From a virus (Duplodnaviria > Caudoviricetes): 64,000 nt of DNA. The notes under the pieces are model-generated. The model was not told where the DNA came from. It searched no databases and was given only the letters and a program-made list of their open reading frames with translations. Shown one piece after another: positions 1,637 to 60,150 of this stretch (positions are counted from its first letter, which is position 1; the number at the start of each line of letters is the position of its first letter). The DNA is taken from positions 1,666 through 65,665 of the IMG/VR virus record IMGVR_UViG_3300025270_000010; one strand, given 5' to 3'. The position numbers were made by a program, and so were the translations under genes.

Positions 1637-1665
1637 TTGACAACTTAACGTCTATCTGCTACACT
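1637..1665 (+). promoter_or_regulatory. sigma70-type promoter, leaderless
   Basis: TTGACA(1637-1642)-17 nt-TACACT(1660-1665), ATG1672 6 nt later. Confidence 0.9.
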
Positions 1666-1671
1666 ACTACC

Positions 1672-3892: not shown

Positions 3893-3921
3893 TTTACAAA
3901 TCACCAACCATCTGCTACACT
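3893..3921 (+). promoter_or_regulatory. sigma70-type promoter, leaderless
   Basis: TTTACA-17 nt-TACACT, ATG3928 6 nt later. Confidence 0.85.
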
Positions 3922-3927
3922 ACCATC

Positions 3928-7779: not shown

Positions 7780-8760
7780 ATGACTAAGATATCTTCCCTC
7801 CGCTCCCTCTTTGAAAACACTCAAGCTGGTCTCGATCTCCTCATGGAAATGACCGACGACCAACTGGACAACCGCGAGAAGGTCGCCGAACTGACCTCCG
7901 CCCTACTACAGGAGCGCGAGTCCGCCGACGAACTTGTTGCCGGACTCCGTGAGGTTCACATCGGGTCAGGCCCGAGGGGGATGGGCTACAAGGGAAAGAA
8001 GGCACACCTTGAAGCGTTGCTCGATGAGTTCGCCGAGGCTCGCGACGAAGCGGCGGCCATGCTGGCGAAGGGTGGGGATGCCCGTGCCGAGGCCCGTGTC
8101 GCCAGTGCCGTCGAGGACATCGTGCCTCCCTCGGAAGAGGAAGAGGAAGAGGAAATCCCATCCCTCGCGGACCTCATTGCCGAGAACATCGACGGCTCTT
8201 TTACACCGGAGGACGAGACGCCTGACCCCACTAAGCGGGTGGCTTCACAGCACGACTCTGTTCGGGGGCTTGGTCTCCGCAAGAACGCGGTCAGGGCGCT
8301 TGAGCTGGCCAACATCTACAGCATCGGACAGTTGATCAGTCAAACCCCTGACTATCTTCTCAGCTTGCACCAGTTCGGAGCTGCCTCCATGGAGGATGTG
8401 CAGATAGGTCTCGACGCCCTCGACTTTGAGTGGCCCAACGGGCAGCTCTTCAGGGCGACTGGCGGAGCGGGTGAAACCCCTCTTGGCCGTCTCATCCGTG
8501 GTGACGACCTTTTCCAGACTGAGGAGGAGGAGAACCGCAAGGAGGAAGAGGAGGAGAACCGCAAGGAGGAAGAGGAGGAGAACCGCAAGGAGGAAGAGAA
8601 GCGCAAGGAGGTTCGCCGCCGCAATGCTGCTTACGCACGGGCCTATTATAGGAAGAACCGGAAGAAGATTCTGAAGCAGCAGTCAGTCTACAGGCGGCGG
8701 ACACGCGTTCGCATACAAGATCTGGAGGCCAAGGTGTCCGACGAAAGGGGGGGCCAGTAA
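7780..8760 (+). CDS. protein with RNA polymerase alpha-CTD-like domain and basic C-terminal helix
   Basis: VRGLGLRKNAVRALELANIYSIGQLISQTPDYLLSLHQFGAASMEDV aligns without gaps to the E. coli alpha-CTD (residues 257-303). Confidence 0.8.
   Translation: MTKISSLRSLFENTQAGLDLLMEMTDDQLDNREKVAELTSALLQERESADELVAGLREVHIGSGPRGMGYKGKKAHLEALLDEFAEARDEAAAMLAKGGDARAEARVASAVEDIVPPSEEEEEEEIPSLADLIAENIDGSFTPEDETPDPTKRVASQHDSVRGLGLRKNAVRALELANIYSIGQLISQTPDYLLSLHQFGAASMEDVQIGLDALDFEWPNGQLFRATGGAGETPLGRLIRGDDLFQTEEEENRKEEEEENRKEEEEENRKEEEKRKEVRRRNAAYARAYYRKNRKKILKQQSVYRRRTRVRIQDLEAKVSDERGGQ
8527..8598 (+). repeat. in-frame tandem repeat, 3 x 24 nt (EENRKEEE)
   Basis: GAGGAGAACCGCAAGGAGGAAGAG x3, exact copies. 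Confidence 0.95.
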
Positions 8761-44244: not shown

Positions 44245-44249
44245 AGTTC

Positions 44250-44278
44250 AAAGTAGCAGATGGGGGGTCAAGGGTCAA
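44250..44278 (-). promoter_or_regulatory. sigma70-type promoter, leaderless
   Basis: Minus strand TTGACC-17 nt-TACTTT with the same CATCTGCTAC context as the early promoters; ATG 5 nt later. Confidence 0.75.
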
Positions 44279-56650: not shown

Positions 56651-56712
56651 AATCGTAGTTGGGTTATGCGCGGGGCGGCAGTTCTACGCCACCACCCCGC
56701 ACAATTTAAACC

Positions 56713-58074
56713 TTACGCAGCGGGCGTGGTGCTCGTGCGCTTGAAGAGGATGACGTAACCGAAGTTGGTCTTGATCGGCTTGGAGGCCGAAGCAAGGATA
56801 CCACGGAAGAACCCGATTGACCCATCAGGGTTCAAGATCACATCGGGAATGTTAGTCCACTTGAAGTCGCCCTTATAATTTATGGGGTCAAACTTCAGTC
56901 CGCTGACATTACCGACAGGGGCCGGAACGAGGGACTCCATCACGTTGTCAACGAGGACGAACGCGGCCTCAAGGTCAGCAGTCTCGTAAGAGGCGTTGCT
57001 GATGATCTTGTTGTTGCCTGTGTCGTGGCTGTAAGGCTGAACCTCGGTCAGACAGTTAGCGCCTGCGTCGGGGTCATCATCCGCCTTGTCTTTCAGGGCA
57101 GTGGTGAAACGCGGGGCAAGGTCGTCGATCAGGTGGTAGAAACCACGGAAGGACTTCTCAATTCCCAACGGCGCGATGAGGTCGGAGACCTTCGCGTTGT
57201 TGTAACGAACGTCGTCACGGAAGCCCGCTTCAGTCATCAACTGGTAGGAAGCCTCGGACGAACACACCAGCGAGAAGACCGGACGGCCATTCTCACGGCC
57301 ATAGGCGTTAGCGCCTGCTCCAGCACGGATCAGCTTGAAGTAGATGTCATCAAGGATCTTGTTGGAGATGTTAGCGGTAACGTCGATGACGCCGTTGTTG
57401 GTGCCGGAACCAGCGTCAACGTCTACGCCGTCAAGGGGCGTCCCCTCCACACCCGTCTGGGTGAGAGAAGTAGCGGTCTTGGCGTAAACGATGTTGTCAC
57501 ACTGGGTGCCGTATTCCACGCGGTAGCGTTGCTCCCAAGTATTGCGGGTGGCTTCTTTGAGCATATCCATGATAGCCCGAAGCTGCTCAGTCCGGTGAGC
57601 GGCGAAGCGAAGTTCCTCGACGTTGATCCGAGGGGACTCGATCACGGCCCGCTGAAGACTGAAACTCTTGAGGGTTTTGGTGAAGTCAATCAGGTTGACA
57701 TCTCCGTGACCTTCAGTGCCGTAAAACGTAGTCCCGTCTCCAGATGAAGCCTGCTGGCCTCCGCTAAAACCGTGGGTGCCTGAAGCAGCAACAAGGCCGA
57801 GATCGGCCCAGTCAGCACCAACTCCGACAGTGTCGTTGTCGGCGAGATTCTTGTCACGAGCCTGAAGCGGAAGTGCGCGGTCGTAAACGAGGGTGTTCAG
57901 GGTGTAGCCCATTGCTTCGGGGAAGGTGGACTGCTTGATAAGGTCGATCCACGGGGAAGTGTGGAGGGTCGCCTTGTGAATGTCGTTACCGATGCGACCT
58001 GCTTCTTGTGTCAGGACGACATCAACCGCAGCGGAGGCATTGGTAACGAACGTGGAGGGTGGGGCAAAAGCCAT
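56713..58074 (-). CDS. major capsid protein
   Basis: 453 aa, after portal and scaffold; highly biased codons; has its own long leader. Confidence 0.8.
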   Translation of the reverse strand: MAFAPPSTFVTNASAAVDVVLTQEAGRIGNDIHKATLHTSPWIDLIKQSTFPEAMGYTLNTLVYDRALPLQARDKNLADNDTVGVGADWADLGLVAASGTHGFSGGQQASSGDGTTFYGTEGHGDVNLIDFTKTLKSFSLQRAVIESPRINVEELRFAAHRTEQLRAIMDMLKEATRNTWEQRYRVEYGTQCDNIVYAKTATSLTQTGVEGTPLDGVDVDAGSGTNNGVIDVTANISNKILDDIYFKLIRAGAGANAYGRENGRPVFSLVCSSEASYQLMTEAGFRDDVRYNNAKVSDLIAPLGIEKSFRGFYHLIDDLAPRFTTALKDKADDDPDAGANCLTEVQPYSHDTGNNKIISNASYETADLEAAFVLVDNVMESLVPAPVGNVSGLKFDPINYKGDFKWTNIPDVILNPDGSIGFFRGILASASKPIKTNFGYVILFKRTSTTPAA

Positions 58075-58162
58075 GATATTTGAAAATAAAAAGTTAGGTG
58101 AGAGGGTAGACCGCTCCCCCTGTCTGGGGCTTAAAGCGGCCTGACTGAATTGGTGAACACTG

Positions 58163-58280
58163 CCTGACTAGAACTACTTATACGGCTAGAGCAACCGACA
58201 GGTTCGGGTGGTATGGTTTGGAACTCAGCCCAAGAACAGCGACTTTGTAGAACTACTTGTGGCTAGAGCAACCTCGTCGC
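58163..58280 (-). repeat. tandem motif GGTTGCTCTAGCC-N2/4-AAGTAGTTCTA in the capsid leader
   Basis: Two copies (58169-58196, 58248-58273), each inside its own closing stem. Confidence 0.85.
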
Positions 58281-58327
58281 GTAGGGGGACATTCTTAACA
58301 GAAAATACAAAACTGTCAATAGGAGAT

Positions 58328-59545
58328 TTATCGGTTCAGGTTGTTCGCTCCAAACGCGGAGTTGATGGCGTCCTCAAACGAGGCGTCTCCCCCAACCCCA
58401 CTGGCAACCTGACCCGAAGTTGGGGTATTCCCCGACATGGTAGGCTCCGCGCCCTCATATTCTGCCAGTCGGTCGGTGAGCACCGTGTTCTCAGCCCGCA
58501 TGGCTACGAACTCGCGGACCACGGCGGGGAGGAGCTGGGCAGAAATAGAGTTGAAGGTGAAATCCACGGGGTGCATGACGGCGGGGTCTACTTCAGCCGC
58601 CTTCTCCTGAATCGCCGCCATGTCCAGCCCCTCGACACCGGACAGGAACGGGAGCTTCTGCTGGACACGCTCGGCCACATTCTGGGCTACTTCTTGGCGG
58701 ACACGCAAATTTTCCGCCGCCTCGTGCTGGGATTTGCGTTCAGCCAACAATTCGGCCTCCTTCAGGGCCGCATCCGAATTCTCCCACATGTTGTTTCGCA
58801 TTTGGAGAACGGGGTCAATCTGGTTGATCAGGTGGTAAATTTTTGCGCGGTCCCTGTCCGTGGCATCCTGCAAAATATCATTCAGGGCGCGGTCCTGTTC
58901 TTCCTGCTCAGAGAGGGACATGGCATCAATAAGGGTATCCGCGTCGGCCCCATACTTCTCCGCAAGCGCGGTAGCCTCCTGCACAATGGTCTGCAAGGGC
59001 TGGGCTACGGCCTCTTGGTAAGCCTGTGTCTGTTCCAGATTGGTGAACATCTGGGTCTTCTCGTATTCAGCAATTTTTTGTTGGAGCGCCTCCACATCGT
59101 TGGACTCCGCTAAACCAGAAAGTTCCTTGATCTTCGCCGCATTCTCCTCCTGCTGTTGCCGGAGAGTCTGAAGCTCGGTGCTGGTGTCCTTCAGCTCGGA
59201 CTTCAGTTGCTTGAATCGGGATGCAGCTTTCGGGGTCCAATCGTCCCCGATGTCCTCGGTTAGGTTTTCGGTTGGGTCGGGGGTGTCCTCTTGAACGGCC
59301 TCTGCTTCCGGTTCTGGAGTAGGTTCCGGTTCCGGTTCTGGTTCTGGTTCTGGAGTAGGCTCCGGTTCTGGAGTAGATTCCGGTTCTGGAGTAGACCCCG
59401 CTTCAATCCCAGCAAAAGCTGTTTCCAAGGCGTCCATGAAAGACGCGCCTGAATCCTCACTGGTGTCAGGAACATTCGCGGTTACTTCTGTCACGGGGTC
59501 TGCTGCCGACGTTTCGGCGACTTCATTCGATGTGGGTCCACTCAT
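58328..59545 (-). CDS. capsid scaffolding protein
   Basis: Acidic coiled coil with (EP)n linker, between portal and capsid. Confidence 0.75.
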   Translation of the reverse strand: MSGPTSNEVAETSAADPVTEVTANVPDTSEDSGASFMDALETAFAGIEAGSTPEPESTPEPEPTPEPEPEPEPEPTPEPEAEAVQEDTPDPTENLTEDIGDDWTPKAASRFKQLKSELKDTSTELQTLRQQQEENAAKIKELSGLAESNDVEALQQKIAEYEKTQMFTNLEQTQAYQEAVAQPLQTIVQEATALAEKYGADADTLIDAMSLSEQEEQDRALNDILQDATDRDRAKIYHLINQIDPVLQMRNNMWENSDAALKEAELLAERKSQHEAAENLRVRQEVAQNVAERVQQKLPFLSGVEGLDMAAIQEKAAEVDPAVMHPVDFTFNSISAQLLPAVVREFVAMRAENTVLTDRLAEYEGAEPTMSGNTPTSGQVASGVGGDASFEDAINSAFGANNLNR

Positions 59546-59867
59546 CTGGAGTTATGTTTGTTTGTTTGTCTGCGGGAGGATTGGCTAATTTATACAAATC
59601 ATTTAACGCGTCACGATAGCCTGCATACCAAGCGTGGCGTTGGGAGTTACCCTCGGTATCTTGCAAAGTATTAAACGAGGGTCCAGCTATTTCCTTCAGA
59701 GTGGCCGCAGCTTTCTTGAAGGCGTCCGACTCCAGAAGCTCGTTGAGTATCTTGACGGTGGCCAGATCCCGATACCAACGGTCAAGGGGGATCGGGGGCG
59801 TTATCTCTTTTTTAGACATCTGAATTCTTCCGCTCTTCCCGTAACATTGCCTTCGCCAAGATAGCAT
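59523..59867 (-). CDS. hypothetical head-region protein
   Basis: 114-aa ORF. Confidence 0.6.
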   Translation of the reverse strand: MLSWRRQCYGKSGRIQMSKKEITPPIPLDRWYRDLATVKILNELLESDAFKKAAATLKEIAGPSFNTLQDTEGNSQRHAWYAGYRDALNDLYKLANPPADKQTNITPDEWTHIE

Positions 59868-60150
59868 AGTTTACAATGTCATGACACGCATCTTCAACAC
59901 TTTCGTCGGGGACTTGTAGTTCCCTGTCGTTCACGAACGAGCGGATGCGCTGGATCTTGTCGAGCACCCGCATCAGCAGCCCGTGGACGGGGTGGATGTC
60001 TATCACTATGCTACTCTTGAAGTTGGCAAACGGATCAGTGGCATCCTTGCCGCCCGTGTAGTCTGAATTTTTTGTTCGCATGATGGCCTTGCACTCGCGG
60101 CAAGTCTCATCGTGCAGGTCAAGGAGTTCTTTCGAGTTCACTGGTTTCAC
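59812..60150 (-). CDS. DUF1599 / Nmad1-like all-alpha nucleotide pyrophosphohydrolase-fold protein
   Basis: KNSDY, DPFANF, R..DK..R, ESVED..DIVNYA. Confidence 0.75.
   Translation of the reverse strand: MKPVNSKELLDLHDETCRECKAIMRTKNSDYTGGKDATDPFANFKSSIVIDIHPVHGLLMRVLDKIQRIRSFVNDRELQVPDESVEDACHDIVNYAILAKAMLREERKNSDV

What the first reader, a model, noticed from the sequence alone, without database searches (positions are those of the whole stretch)
58080..58320. Tandem structured RNA motif in the long leader of the major capsid gene
Seen on the minus strand: a TTGACA box near 58314-58319, then two copies of GGTTGCTCTAGCC-(AC/GTAT)-AAGTAGTTCTA. Copy 1 is closed by GCGAC/GTCGC (58239-58280) and copy 2 by a different stem, CCTGTC/GTCAGG (58163-58202). 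A further GGCCGCT/AGCGGTC hairpin follows. A conserved core inside different closing stems is the signature of selection on RNA structure. Inference: tandem protein- or ligand-binding sites that autoregulate capsid synthesis (capsid or scaffold feedback), or a packaging-related RNA.
Basis: partly seen in the sequence, partly recalled or inferred. Interest (0 to 1): 0.7.

Follow-up and report, generated by a model that had tools for sequence, protein, structure and literature searches.

The report
Tandem structured RNA in capsid leader
Two copies of a previously undescribed, compactly folded RNA element sit at the very start of the major capsid messenger RNA of a large group of uncultured ocean and lake phages, and probably serve as docking sites for a factor that controls how much capsid protein is made.

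Summary
On the minus strand, a sigma-70-like promoter (58319-58291) is followed by two exact copies of GGUUGCUCUAGCC-linker-(AAG)UAGUUCUA, each inside a different closing stem, then a third hairpin and an A/U-rich, Shine-Dalgarno-less tract before the ATG at 58074. The downstream gene is a genuine HK97-fold major capsid protein; its closest solved folds are N4-like capsids.

The motif is a real, conserved RNA structure. It occurs in more than 100 related viral and metagenomic contigs, always on the sense strand 50-200 nt upstream of the capsid homologue, and nearly always in tandem. Closing stems differ completely between loci yet stay complementary. The inner helix is 99.7% paired, with eight different compensated sequences. 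Variants carry a hairpin inserted in the apical loop. A 3-bp pseudoknot (GGY with RCC) is suggested but not proven.

No Rfam family, paper or cultured phage matches it, and it is absent from bacterial genomes apart from mis-binned phage contigs. Function is inferred. I favour a tandem operator for a phage-encoded protein that controls capsid mRNA translation or stability. One weak lead for that protein is a small, very basic protein (63498-63824) that was lost together with the motif at least twice. Riboswitch, self-contained 5' stabiliser and put-like antiterminator readings remain open.

The parts
58291..58319 (-). Sigma-70-like promoter: -35 TTGACA (58319-58314), 17-nt spacer, -10 AAGAAT (58296-58291)
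   Evidence: A promoter-like site of at least 9/12 matches occurs in 69% of 75 distinct upstream regions of relatives, against 3% of control windows. The -10 end lies 12-21 nt before G1 of copy 1. The TSS is predicted, not mapped.
58239..58280 (-). Motif copy 1. P1 is 58280-58276 with 58243-58239. The core is 58273-58248: 13-mer 58273-58261, linker plus AAG 58260-58256, 8-mer 58255-58248.
   Evidence: Covariance model score 46.8 bits, E = 3.6e-10. Closing-stem test. Inner-helix covariation.
58220..58231 (-). Small inter-copy hairpin (GGG-loop-YCC type)
   Evidence: Seen by eye in the leaders of many relatives with spacing of at least 66 nt, including GGG/CCC to GAG/CUC changes. Not tested statistically.
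58163..58202 (-). Motif copy 2. P1 is 58202-58197 with 58168-58163 and can extend to 58205 and 58155. The core is 58196-58169.
   Evidence: Covariance model score 54.2 bits, E = 3.6e-12. Supporting tests.
58108..58142 (-). Third conserved hairpin: outer 8-bp stem 58142-58135 with 58115-58108, and an inner CCCC/GGGG stem
   Evidence: In 23 diverse leaders the outer stem is 86.6% paired, against 35-49% for slid controls. Only 3-5 of 500 shuffles reach the observed values.
58075..58098 (-). A/U-rich, Shine-Dalgarno-less tract before the start codon (UUAACUUUUUA type; relatives carry CUUAA repeats)
   Evidence: Almost no gene in the window has a Shine-Dalgarno sequence.
56713..58074 (-). Major capsid protein gene (453 aa, HK97 fold)
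   Evidence: AlphaFold model from a 67-sequence alignment, pLDDT 82.7, pTM 0.80. Foldseek against PDB gives N4, DEV, Moo19 and B2 capsids at E = 4e-11 to 4e-10 with probability 1.0, and 232 hits at E <= 1e-3.
56667..56703 (-). Strong G+C-rich hairpin directly after the capsid stop codon (-30 kcal/mol, no U tract)
   Evidence: An equivalent hairpin is present in all 18 relatives examined, and several are full intrinsic terminators with U tracts.
58328..59545 (-). Upstream gene, scaffold-like (405 aa, acidic Pro/Glu repeats)
   Evidence: Conserved upstream of the leader in relatives and in genomes that lack the motif. The scaffold role is inferred from position and composition only.
63498..63824 (-). 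Lead only: small, very basic, Tyr-rich protein (108 aa) whose presence tracks the RNA motif
   Evidence: Present in 18 of 21 motif-bearing genomes and 0 of 5 complete motif-lacking genomes, even with a profile search at E <= 1. No Pfam or PHROG family.

Best explanation
**What is shown.** The two repeats are two copies of a new, compact, structured RNA module at the extreme 5' end of the major capsid mRNA. Each copy has:

- a variable closing helix, P1;
- an invariant asymmetric internal loop, GGYY opposite UA;
- a 6-7 bp helix, P2, made of an invariant G:C, two invariant pyrimidine-pyrimidine mismatches and 3-4 freely covarying Watson-Crick pairs;
- an apical loop that always begins with CC and ends with AA, varies from 5 to about 25 nt, and can hold an extra hairpin.

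**What is suggested, not proven.** GGY probably pairs with RCC. That would make an H-type pseudoknot nested in P1 and bring all invariant nucleotides together at one junction.

**Mechanism I favour (inferred).** The two modules are a tandem operator for a trans-acting factor, most likely a phage-encoded protein that binds as a dimer or as two protomers. Occupancy would set the translation and/or lifetime of the capsid mRNA. This would give post-transcriptional control of the most abundant virion protein, which is otherwise driven by a near-consensus host-type promoter. The third hairpin and the unstructured A/U-rich tract link the operator to the Shine-Dalgarno-less start site, much as the 5' pseudoknot and A/U-rich tract do in the phage T4 gene 32 operator.
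For: **RNA structure**

- Native P1 flanks give a mean duplex energy of -9.0 kcal/mol, against -3.7 for mismatched flank pairs (Mann-Whitney p = 4e-33). 95% reach -5 kcal/mol or better, against 26% of controls.
- P1 is more stable on the sense strand than on the antisense strand, and 12% of its pairs are G-U.
- P2 is 99.7% paired in 72 distinct cores, with 23 doubly changed cells. No shuffle of 500 reaches this, and slid controls stay at or below 50%.
- Eight different compensated helix sequences occur. A structural descriptor hits 158 times in 43 kb of upstream sense sequence, against 6 times in 577 kb of control.
- The apical loop tolerates GNRA-capped hairpin insertions.

**Cis-acting on the capsid gene**

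- Every covariance-model hit is on the sense strand upstream of the capsid homologue.
- A conserved promoter lies just upstream.
- The genome holds only these two copies.

**Partner likely phage-encoded rather than host or metabolite**

- In one genome per species of 185,579 bacterial and archaeal species, the tandem motif occurs only on phage-like contigs that also carry the capsid gene. Single hits are at the level expected by chance.
- The unusual C-U to U-C mismatch swap is present in both copies of the same phages.
- No phage RNA polymerase was found among the ORFs scanned, so a strong constitutive host-type promoter would need another layer of control.
- The small basic protein at 63498-63824 is in 18 of 21 motif-bearing genomes and 0 of 5 motif-lacking genomes. 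On the capsid tree, the motif-lacking genomes form at least two separate lineages.
Against: - No experiment or transcript data exist. The TSS is predicted only.
- Copy 2 ends about 95 nt before the start codon, so direct occlusion of the ribosome site is not possible. A relay through the third hairpin and the A/U tract is assumed, not shown.
- All invariant bases cluster into one compact junction. That pattern is at least as typical of a ligand pocket or a self-contained tertiary fold as of a protein site.
- The co-occurring protein has no recognisable RNA-binding domain. It is missing from two motif-bearing genomes that are at least 91% complete. Other genes show a similar clade pattern, so the correlation could simply reflect shared ancestry.
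- The pseudoknot stem rests on one covarying position: U-G 7, C-G 7, U-A 5, C-A 0 (Fisher p = 0.11).
- The parallel change in both copies could be gene conversion.
Confidence: 0.42

Rival explanations
1. Self-contained 5' stabiliser or translation-enhancing fold. The pseudoknotted hairpins need no specific partner. Their compact tertiary fold at the 5' terminus would block 5'-end-dependent decay (RppH, RNase E or RNase J) and perhaps provide a ribosome standby platform. Sequence invariance would reflect the fold itself, and duplication would give robustness.
For: - Hairpin 1 starts within a few nucleotides of the predicted TSS.
- The capsid cassette also carries a strong 3' hairpin or terminator in every relative examined, as expected for a long-lived, highly expressed mRNA.
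- The motif is invariant across phages with roughly 33-55% G+C in the motif segments, and presumably different hosts.
- A phage-only distribution is natural for such an invention.
Against: - Any stable 5' hairpin protects an mRNA, so this reading does not explain why 15 or more non-Watson-Crick positions are invariant.
- It does not explain why copy 2, which is internal, is equally conserved.
- It does not explain why related clades dispense with the motif while keeping the promoter and the leader.
Confidence: 0.22
2. Tandem riboswitch. Each module is a small pseudoknot aptamer for a metabolite or a phage-made small molecule, and ligand binding tunes capsid expression.
For: - The architecture (P1 enclosing a small pseudoknot, an A-rich third loop, invariant junction nucleotides, variable peripheral helices and insertions) resembles small aptamers such as preQ1-I, SAM-II or fluoride (my knowledge).
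- Tandem aptamers are known, for example glycine and guanidine-II.
- Structural evidence.
- A nucleotide-modification-associated gene (DUF1599) lies in the same gene block.
Against: - There is no match to any Rfam riboswitch.
- There is no adjacent expression platform. No terminator or start-site overlap was found, and about 95 nt with a separately conserved hairpin intervene.
- The motif is absent from all bacterial genomes searched. That would be unusual for a riboswitch, as far as I know.
Confidence: 0.15
3. put-like antiterminator. The nascent tandem hairpins bind the transcribing host RNA polymerase in cis and make it resistant to terminators downstream, as the put RNAs of phage HK022 do.
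For: - The hairpins lie immediately downstream of a strong promoter, and there are two of them.
- The target, RNA polymerase, is universal. That would explain invariance across hosts.
- Hairpins or terminators follow the capsid gene, and a long co-directional block of structural genes lies beyond it.
Against: - The two put stems differ from each other, whereas here the two copies are equivalent repeats.
- Clear intrinsic terminators sit right after the capsid gene in several relatives. This fits a deliberately monocistronic, high-output cassette better than read-through.
- No put model was available for a test.
Confidence: 0.07
4. Other readings: double-stranded DNA operators for a transcription factor; or a processed small RNA, packaging RNA or decoy (for example a mimic of an antitoxin or CRISPR repeat).
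For: - The repeated 24-nt conserved sequence lies between about +8 and +115 of the predicted transcript.
- The phage encodes HTH proteins.
Against: - The variable 2-6 nt (up to about 25 nt) spacing between half-sites and the compensatory changes in P1 and P2 are not expected for duplex DNA sites.
- No terminator releases a discrete RNA.
- The copies are not contiguous direct repeats and there is no adjacent toxin or cas gene.
- The fixed position before one essential gene in every member argues against an accessory decoy.
Confidence: 0.06

Closest known systems
Phage T4 gene 32 translational operator (5' pseudoknot plus unstructured A/U-rich leader)
   Same: Both are phage mRNA leaders with a compact (pseudo)knotted element at the 5' end, followed by a long, unstructured, A/U-rich, repeat-containing tract that runs to the start codon. 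In both cases the gene product is needed in very large amounts.
   Different: There is no sequence or model-based relationship. Here there are two modules plus a third hairpin. The regulated gene is a capsid protein, not a single-strand-binding protein. Autogenous binding is unproven, and the pseudoknot stem is only suggested.
Orphan phage cis-regulatory RNA motifs in Rfam (GP20-a/b upstream of the portal-type GP20 gene; Mu-gpT-DE next to the Mu major head gene) and the 10,006 viral candidate structured RNAs of PMC10690425
   Same: These are conserved, covarying structures tied to one structural gene of tailed phages. They were discovered by comparative genomics and their function is unknown.
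   Different: There is no covariance-model match to any Rfam family, and the fold and the gene differ. I could not check whether this motif is one of the unnamed catalogue entries, because the supplements are not held. That catalogue examined RNAs within 25 nt of genes with known domains, which this leader and capsid family would not satisfy.
HK022 put RNAs
   Same: Two stem-loops with conserved internal irregularities directly downstream of a strong phage promoter, acting in cis.
   Different: The put stems are not repeats of each other. Antitermination activity is untested here, and terminators directly after the capsid gene argue for a closed cassette.
Small pseudoknot riboswitch aptamers and tandem hairpin riboswitches (preQ1-I, SAM-II, guanidine-II)
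   Same: Similar size, nested-pseudoknot topology with an A-rich loop, invariant junction, variable periphery and tandem arrangement.
   Different: There is no model match, the motif is not associated with metabolic or transport genes, it is not found in bacteria, it has no expression platform, and its loops lack the ACGR signature of guanidine-II.
thrS operator and ssRNA-phage coat-protein operators
   Same: Hairpins whose non-helical nucleotides are recognised by a protein. In thrS the two sites are matched to a dimeric repressor.
   Different: Those operators overlap or abut the ribosome-binding site, whereas this one is about 95-200 nt upstream.

Membership tests
Any Rfam 15 family (4227 models) | Covariance-model match at the gathering score, or at least E <= 1-10 | tested here: not met
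   No match at gathering score in the whole window. In 57900-58500 at E <= 10 there is only one unrelated chance hit outside the leader. There is no relevant hit in 20 diverse related loci at E <= 1.
preQ1-I / glutamine (glnA, Downstream-peptide) / other small pseudoknot riboswitches | Model match and linkage to the cognate metabolic or transport genes | tested here: not met
   No model match. The only linked gene is a capsid gene.
Guanidine-II (mini-ykkC) | Two tandem hairpins | tested here: met
   Two hairpins 52-90 nt apart, start to start.
Guanidine-II (mini-ykkC) | Conserved ACGR tetraloops and a 3' hairpin that overlaps the ribosome-binding site | tested here: not met
   The loops are CC...AA and variable in length, and copy 2 ends 47-136 nt before the ATG.
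T4 gene 32-type operator | 5' pseudoknot followed by an unstructured A/U-rich tract reaching the start codon | tested here: inconclusive
   The P2 helix is proven. The pseudoknot stem is only suggested. The A/U-rich tract is present, but a conserved third hairpin intervenes.
T4 gene 32-type operator | The regulated product binds its own leader | not testable with these tools
   Needs binding assays.
HK022 put RNA | Two stem-loops just downstream of a promoter, upstream of terminators | tested here: inconclusive
   The position is met. Hairpins or terminators follow the capsid gene. No put model or activity test was available.
Type III toxin-antitoxin antitoxin repeats / CRISPR-like solitary repeats | Contiguous direct repeats next to a toxin or cas gene | tested here: not met
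   The copies are separated by unrelated spacers, have different flanks, and lie between the scaffold-like and capsid genes.
HK97-fold major capsid protein (the downstream gene) | HK97 fold with spine helix, and synteny with portal and scaffold genes | tested here: met
   Model pLDDT 82.7 with a long helix at residues 158-191. The top 50 Foldseek PDB hits are all tailed-phage capsid proteins, E down to 4e-11. The gene order is a 742-aa gene, small genes, an acidic 405-aa gene, then this gene.

The most novel reading that the evidence does not exclude
The tandem modules are a phage-only class of small pseudoknot aptamer, that is, a riboswitch. It would sense a metabolite or a phage-made small molecule, for example a precursor of a DNA modification or a signal of host energy state, and gate capsid synthesis accordingly. 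To my knowledge this would be the first riboswitch class confined to viruses and the first to control a virion structural gene.
Probability: 0.12. Interest if true: 0.9.

Novelty: new variant of a known kind. Interest (0 to 1): 0.6.

Why it matters
The capsid protein is the most abundant product of a tailed phage, and how its output is set after transcription is poorly known outside a few model phages. Here a strongly conserved, covarying RNA fold with about 15 invariant non-helical nucleotides marks the capsid mRNA of a widespread, abundant and uncultured group of marine and freshwater phages. More than 1,400 capsid homologues occur in metagenomes, and none is annotated.

- The motif gives a ready-made, small (about 130 nt) target for structure probing, ligand screens and protein pull-downs.
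- It provides a sensitive sequence marker for this phage group in metagenomes.
- It makes a hypothesis of assembly- or timing-coupled translational control testable in phages whose genes almost all lack Shine-Dalgarno sites.
- If the partner is the small basic protein, this would define a new RNA-protein regulatory pair. If the partner is a small molecule, it would define a virus-specific riboswitch.

Tried and rejected
1. **Loop-loop kissing through the self-complementary CUAG in the 13-mer.** Rejected, because variants replace it with non-palindromic sequences that remain paired with the 3' half.
2. **Resemblance of UGCUCU to the NusB/NusE boxA element.** Rejected as a working model. These bases are base-paired, and positions 8-10 change freely with compensation.
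3. **Simple hairpin within the 13-mer alone (the RNAalifold consensus).** Incompatible as the sole fold with the proven pairing of A10 to the 3' half. It survives only as the pseudoknot stem.
4. **Single matches in bacterial genomes (Methylophaga, Wolbachia and others).** These have no second copy and no capsid gene, and their number is at chance level (my estimate is about 40 expected).
5. **Broader pattern scan.** It returned mostly chance singles and added no new variant class.
6. **Cultured phages.** No capsid homologue was found. The only leader-like hit, in Roseobacter phage CRP-2, is antisense inside a coding sequence at E = 1.
7. **First AlphaFold model from 17 close homologues.** It was poor (pLDDT 48). 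It was replaced after a profile search of 1.8 billion representatives.
8. **Pfam, PHROG and PDB sequence searches of the capsid.** All negative.
9. **The look-up of encoding contigs was closed.** The single-protein scan showed that a distant capsid clade (about 35% identity) lacks the motif.
10. **Fixed-column counting of P1 on the covariance-model alignment.** It understates pairing (44%) because stem offsets vary. The flank-duplex test was used instead.
11. **Earlier-findings look-ups.** They returned nothing on this locus.

Full report
**Observation**

- TTGACA at 58319-58314, then 17 nt, then AAGAAT.
- Copy 1: GGUUGCUCUAGCC-AC-AAGUAGUUCUA at 58273-58248, closed by GCGAC/GUCGC.
- Copy 2: the same core with linker GUAU at 58196-58169, closed by CCUGUC/GUCAGG with one U-U mismatch.
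- A third hairpin at 58142-58108.
- An A/U-rich tract leading to the ATG at 58074.

The bipartite pattern occurs twice in the window and never in 100 shuffles. Neither half occurs elsewhere in the window, even allowing mismatches. The whole 65.6-kb virus record, which CheckV rates as 100% complete, holds only these two copies. A covariance model run with filters off finds nothing else below E = 1. The promoter-like site is the best in 53-64 kb. The single-sequence fold is unremarkable (z = -0.55), so the case has to rest on comparison with relatives.

**The downstream gene**

The 453-aa product has no Pfam, PHROG, PDB-sequence or cultured-phage match. It does have more than 1,485 unnamed homologues in marine metagenomes, and 552 representative clusters at the 50% identity level.

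A first AlphaFold model was poor. A second model, built from a 67-sequence alignment, reached pLDDT 82.7. It matches HK97-fold capsid proteins with probability 1.0. The best matches are N4-type capsids (N4, DEV, Moo19, B2) at E = 4e-11. Together with the gene order (a 742-aa gene, small genes, an acidic 405-aa scaffold-like gene, then this gene), the 'major capsid gene' label is now established.

**Distribution**

- An exact-pattern scan of IMG/VR found 13 contigs, and a relaxed pattern found 87 contigs of mostly 50-65 kb.
- Nearly all carry the motif in tandem. Every contig with enough downstream DNA has a capsid homologue (44-100% identity) starting 50-200 nt after copy 2.
- Searching the other way, from the capsid protein, 25 of 26 and then most of 80 loci carry the motif upstream. 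So do 27 metagenome loci.
- Every covariance-model hit is on the sense strand.
- In one genome for each of 185,579 prokaryotic species, tandem copies occur only on five short MAG contigs that also encode the capsid. These are mis-binned phage. Isolated single hits are at chance level.
- A few sub-clades (8 contigs) and a distant soil clade lack the motif.
- No Rfam family matches in the window or in 20 diverse loci.
- No paper contains the 13-mer.
- The large catalogue of viral candidate RNAs (PMC10690425) could not be checked, because its supplements are not held.

**Structure**

*P1, the closing helix.* The flanks of the core are unrelated in sequence between loci, and between the two copies within one phage, yet they are complementary.

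- Mean duplex energy is -9.0 kcal/mol for native flanks, against -3.7 for flanks paired across loci (Mann-Whitney p = 4e-33).
- 95% of native pairs reach -5 kcal/mol or better, against 26% of controls.
- The sense strand pairs better than the antisense strand, and 12% of pairs are G-U. This points to RNA rather than DNA.

*P2, the inner helix.* Variants reveal how the invariant core folds. I number the 13-mer G1 to C13 and the 8-mer U1' to A8'.

- The pairs are G5:C6', C6-U5', U7-U4', C8:G3', U9:A2' and A10:U1'.
- Eight different compensated versions of the last three pairs occur, for example CUA:UAG, CCA:UGG, CUG:CAG and UCG:CGA.
- On 72 distinct cores the helix is 99.7% paired with 23 doubly changed cells. 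No shuffle of 500 reaches this, and slid controls stay at or below 50%.
- A descriptor of this fold hits 158 times in 43 kb of upstream sense sequence, against 6 times in 577 kb of control.
- The two pyrimidine mismatches are kept. One lineage swaps C-U for U-C, and it does so in both of its copies.

*Apical loop.* The loop always begins with CC and ends with AA, and it varies from 5 to about 25 nt. In a freshwater group that has a single copy, the loop carries a GNRA-capped hairpin.

*Possible pseudoknot.* G1, G2, C12 and C13 are invariant. Position 3 and the base before CC occur only as U-G, C-G or U-A, and never as C-A (7, 7, 5 and 0 among 19 sequence classes; Fisher p = 0.11). This suggests a 3-bp stem that turns the module into an H-type pseudoknot nested in P1. 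Loop lengths would be 1-2 nt, 0-1 nt and 5 nt or more, which suit a 6-7 bp second stem. I regard this stem as likely but unproven.

*Third hairpin.* It is conserved: 86.6% paired, against 35-49% for slid controls.

**Context**

- A promoter-like site of at least 9/12 matches precedes copy 1 in 69% of 75 distinct loci, against 3% of control windows. It ends 12-21 nt before G1, so hairpin 1 should sit at the very 5' end of the transcript.
- The capsid stop codon is followed by a strong hairpin in all 19 loci examined. Several are full terminators.
- Almost no gene in the window has a Shine-Dalgarno sequence.
- No phage RNA polymerase was detected among 37 ORFs scanned.

The picture is of a self-contained, high-output capsid cassette driven by host polymerase.

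**Mechanism**

The distribution argues against a host factor or a common metabolite, because the motif is restricted to one phage group, tied to one gene and absent from bacteria. The tandem, equivalent copies and the parallel mismatch swap favour a shared, phage-encoded partner.

To look for one, I compared whole genomes. The set was five complete motif-lacking genomes, five tandem-motif genomes, five single-copy genomes, and the window.

- On the capsid tree the motif-lacking genomes fall in two places. One clade sits beside the window's lineage, and one genome is nested inside the single-copy group. The motif was therefore lost at least twice.
- A 108-aa, very basic, Tyr-rich protein (63498-63824) is present in all ten motif-bearing genomes and in none of the five motif-lacking ones, even by profile search at E <= 1.
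- In ten further motif-bearing genomes it is found in seven. The three without it comprise one complete genome, one 91% complete and one fragment.
- The protein family is small and unannotated.
- Two other genes show a weaker version of the same pattern.

This is a lead, not proof.

My estimates are as follows.

| Reading | Probability |
|---|---|
| Tandem protein operator controlling capsid mRNA translation or stability | about 0.4 |
| Self-contained 5' stabilising or translation-enhancing fold | about 0.2 |
| Riboswitch | about 0.15 |
| put-like antiterminator | about 0.07 |
| DNA operator, or released RNA or decoy | about 0.06 |

**Comparison and novelty**

The nearest functional analogue is the T4 gene 32 operator (pseudoknot plus A/U-rich leader). 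The nearest in kind are the orphan phage motifs GP20-a/b and Mu-gpT-DE. None is related by model or sequence.

This is a new RNA family of a known general kind. It is well supported as a structure, and its function is open.

Noticed in passing
window 1642-1671, 2905-2934, 3898-3927 (+) and 44245-44274 (-): Four genes (starts at 1672, 2935 and 3928 on the plus strand, and 44244 on the minus strand) carry a shared box of the type AUCUGCUACACUACCACC directly before the ATG. Almost no gene in the window has a Shine-Dalgarno sequence. Capsid leaders of related clades end in a similar CUACUAC tract. This may be a non-SD initiation signal and a clue to the host.
   Followed up: partly
window 56667-56703 (-), and the equivalent place in L016-L041: A strong hairpin directly follows the capsid stop codon in all 19 loci examined. 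Its stem sequence is partly conserved, and in several relatives a second hairpin with a U tract forms a full intrinsic terminator.
   Followed up: partly
L016, L017, L028, L038 and others, 20-60 nt before the capsid ATG: The leaders of A+T-rich relatives contain 3-5 tandem CUUAA units. The window has UUAACUUUUUA instead. From memory, this resembles the epsilon translational enhancer of the T7 gene 10 leader.
   Followed up: no
window 63498-63824 (-): A small family of 75-108 aa very basic proteins with two Tyr-Tyr-x-x-Asn-type repeats. It has no Pfam or PHROG match and only 115 relatives in 5.8 billion protein clusters. Its presence tracks the RNA motif.
   Followed up: partly
window 7780-8760 (+): A 326-aa protein with a weak match to the C-terminal domain of the RNA polymerase alpha subunit (E = 1.2e-4, just below the Pfam cut-off). 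This is possibly a transcription-hijacking factor.
   Followed up: no
L044, L046-L048, L054 (genome contigs): Phage contigs carrying the capsid gene and the tandem motif are binned into MAGs labelled Acidimicrobiaceae, Opitutae, Blastopirellula and Verrucomicrobiales. This is either mis-binning or a hint at hosts.
   Followed up: no
L153-L166, L175-L179 (freshwater 'group B'): This group has one motif copy with a hairpin inserted in its loop. It is followed by a different conserved hairpin whose 8-nt loop (CUGCUUCU) resembles the 5' half of the motif. This may be a degenerate or re-modelled second copy.
   Followed up: no
L159/L032, L161, L167-L169, L171, L172, L190: Capsid leaders of the motif-lacking sub-clades keep the promoter and a long leader with other hairpins. 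In several, an upstream terminator is also visible. A different, unanalysed structure may replace the motif.
   Followed up: no
window 59812-60150 (-): A DUF1599 'nucleotide modification associated domain 1' gene lies between the portal-sized gene and the scaffold-like gene. This suggests DNA modification in this phage.
   Followed up: no
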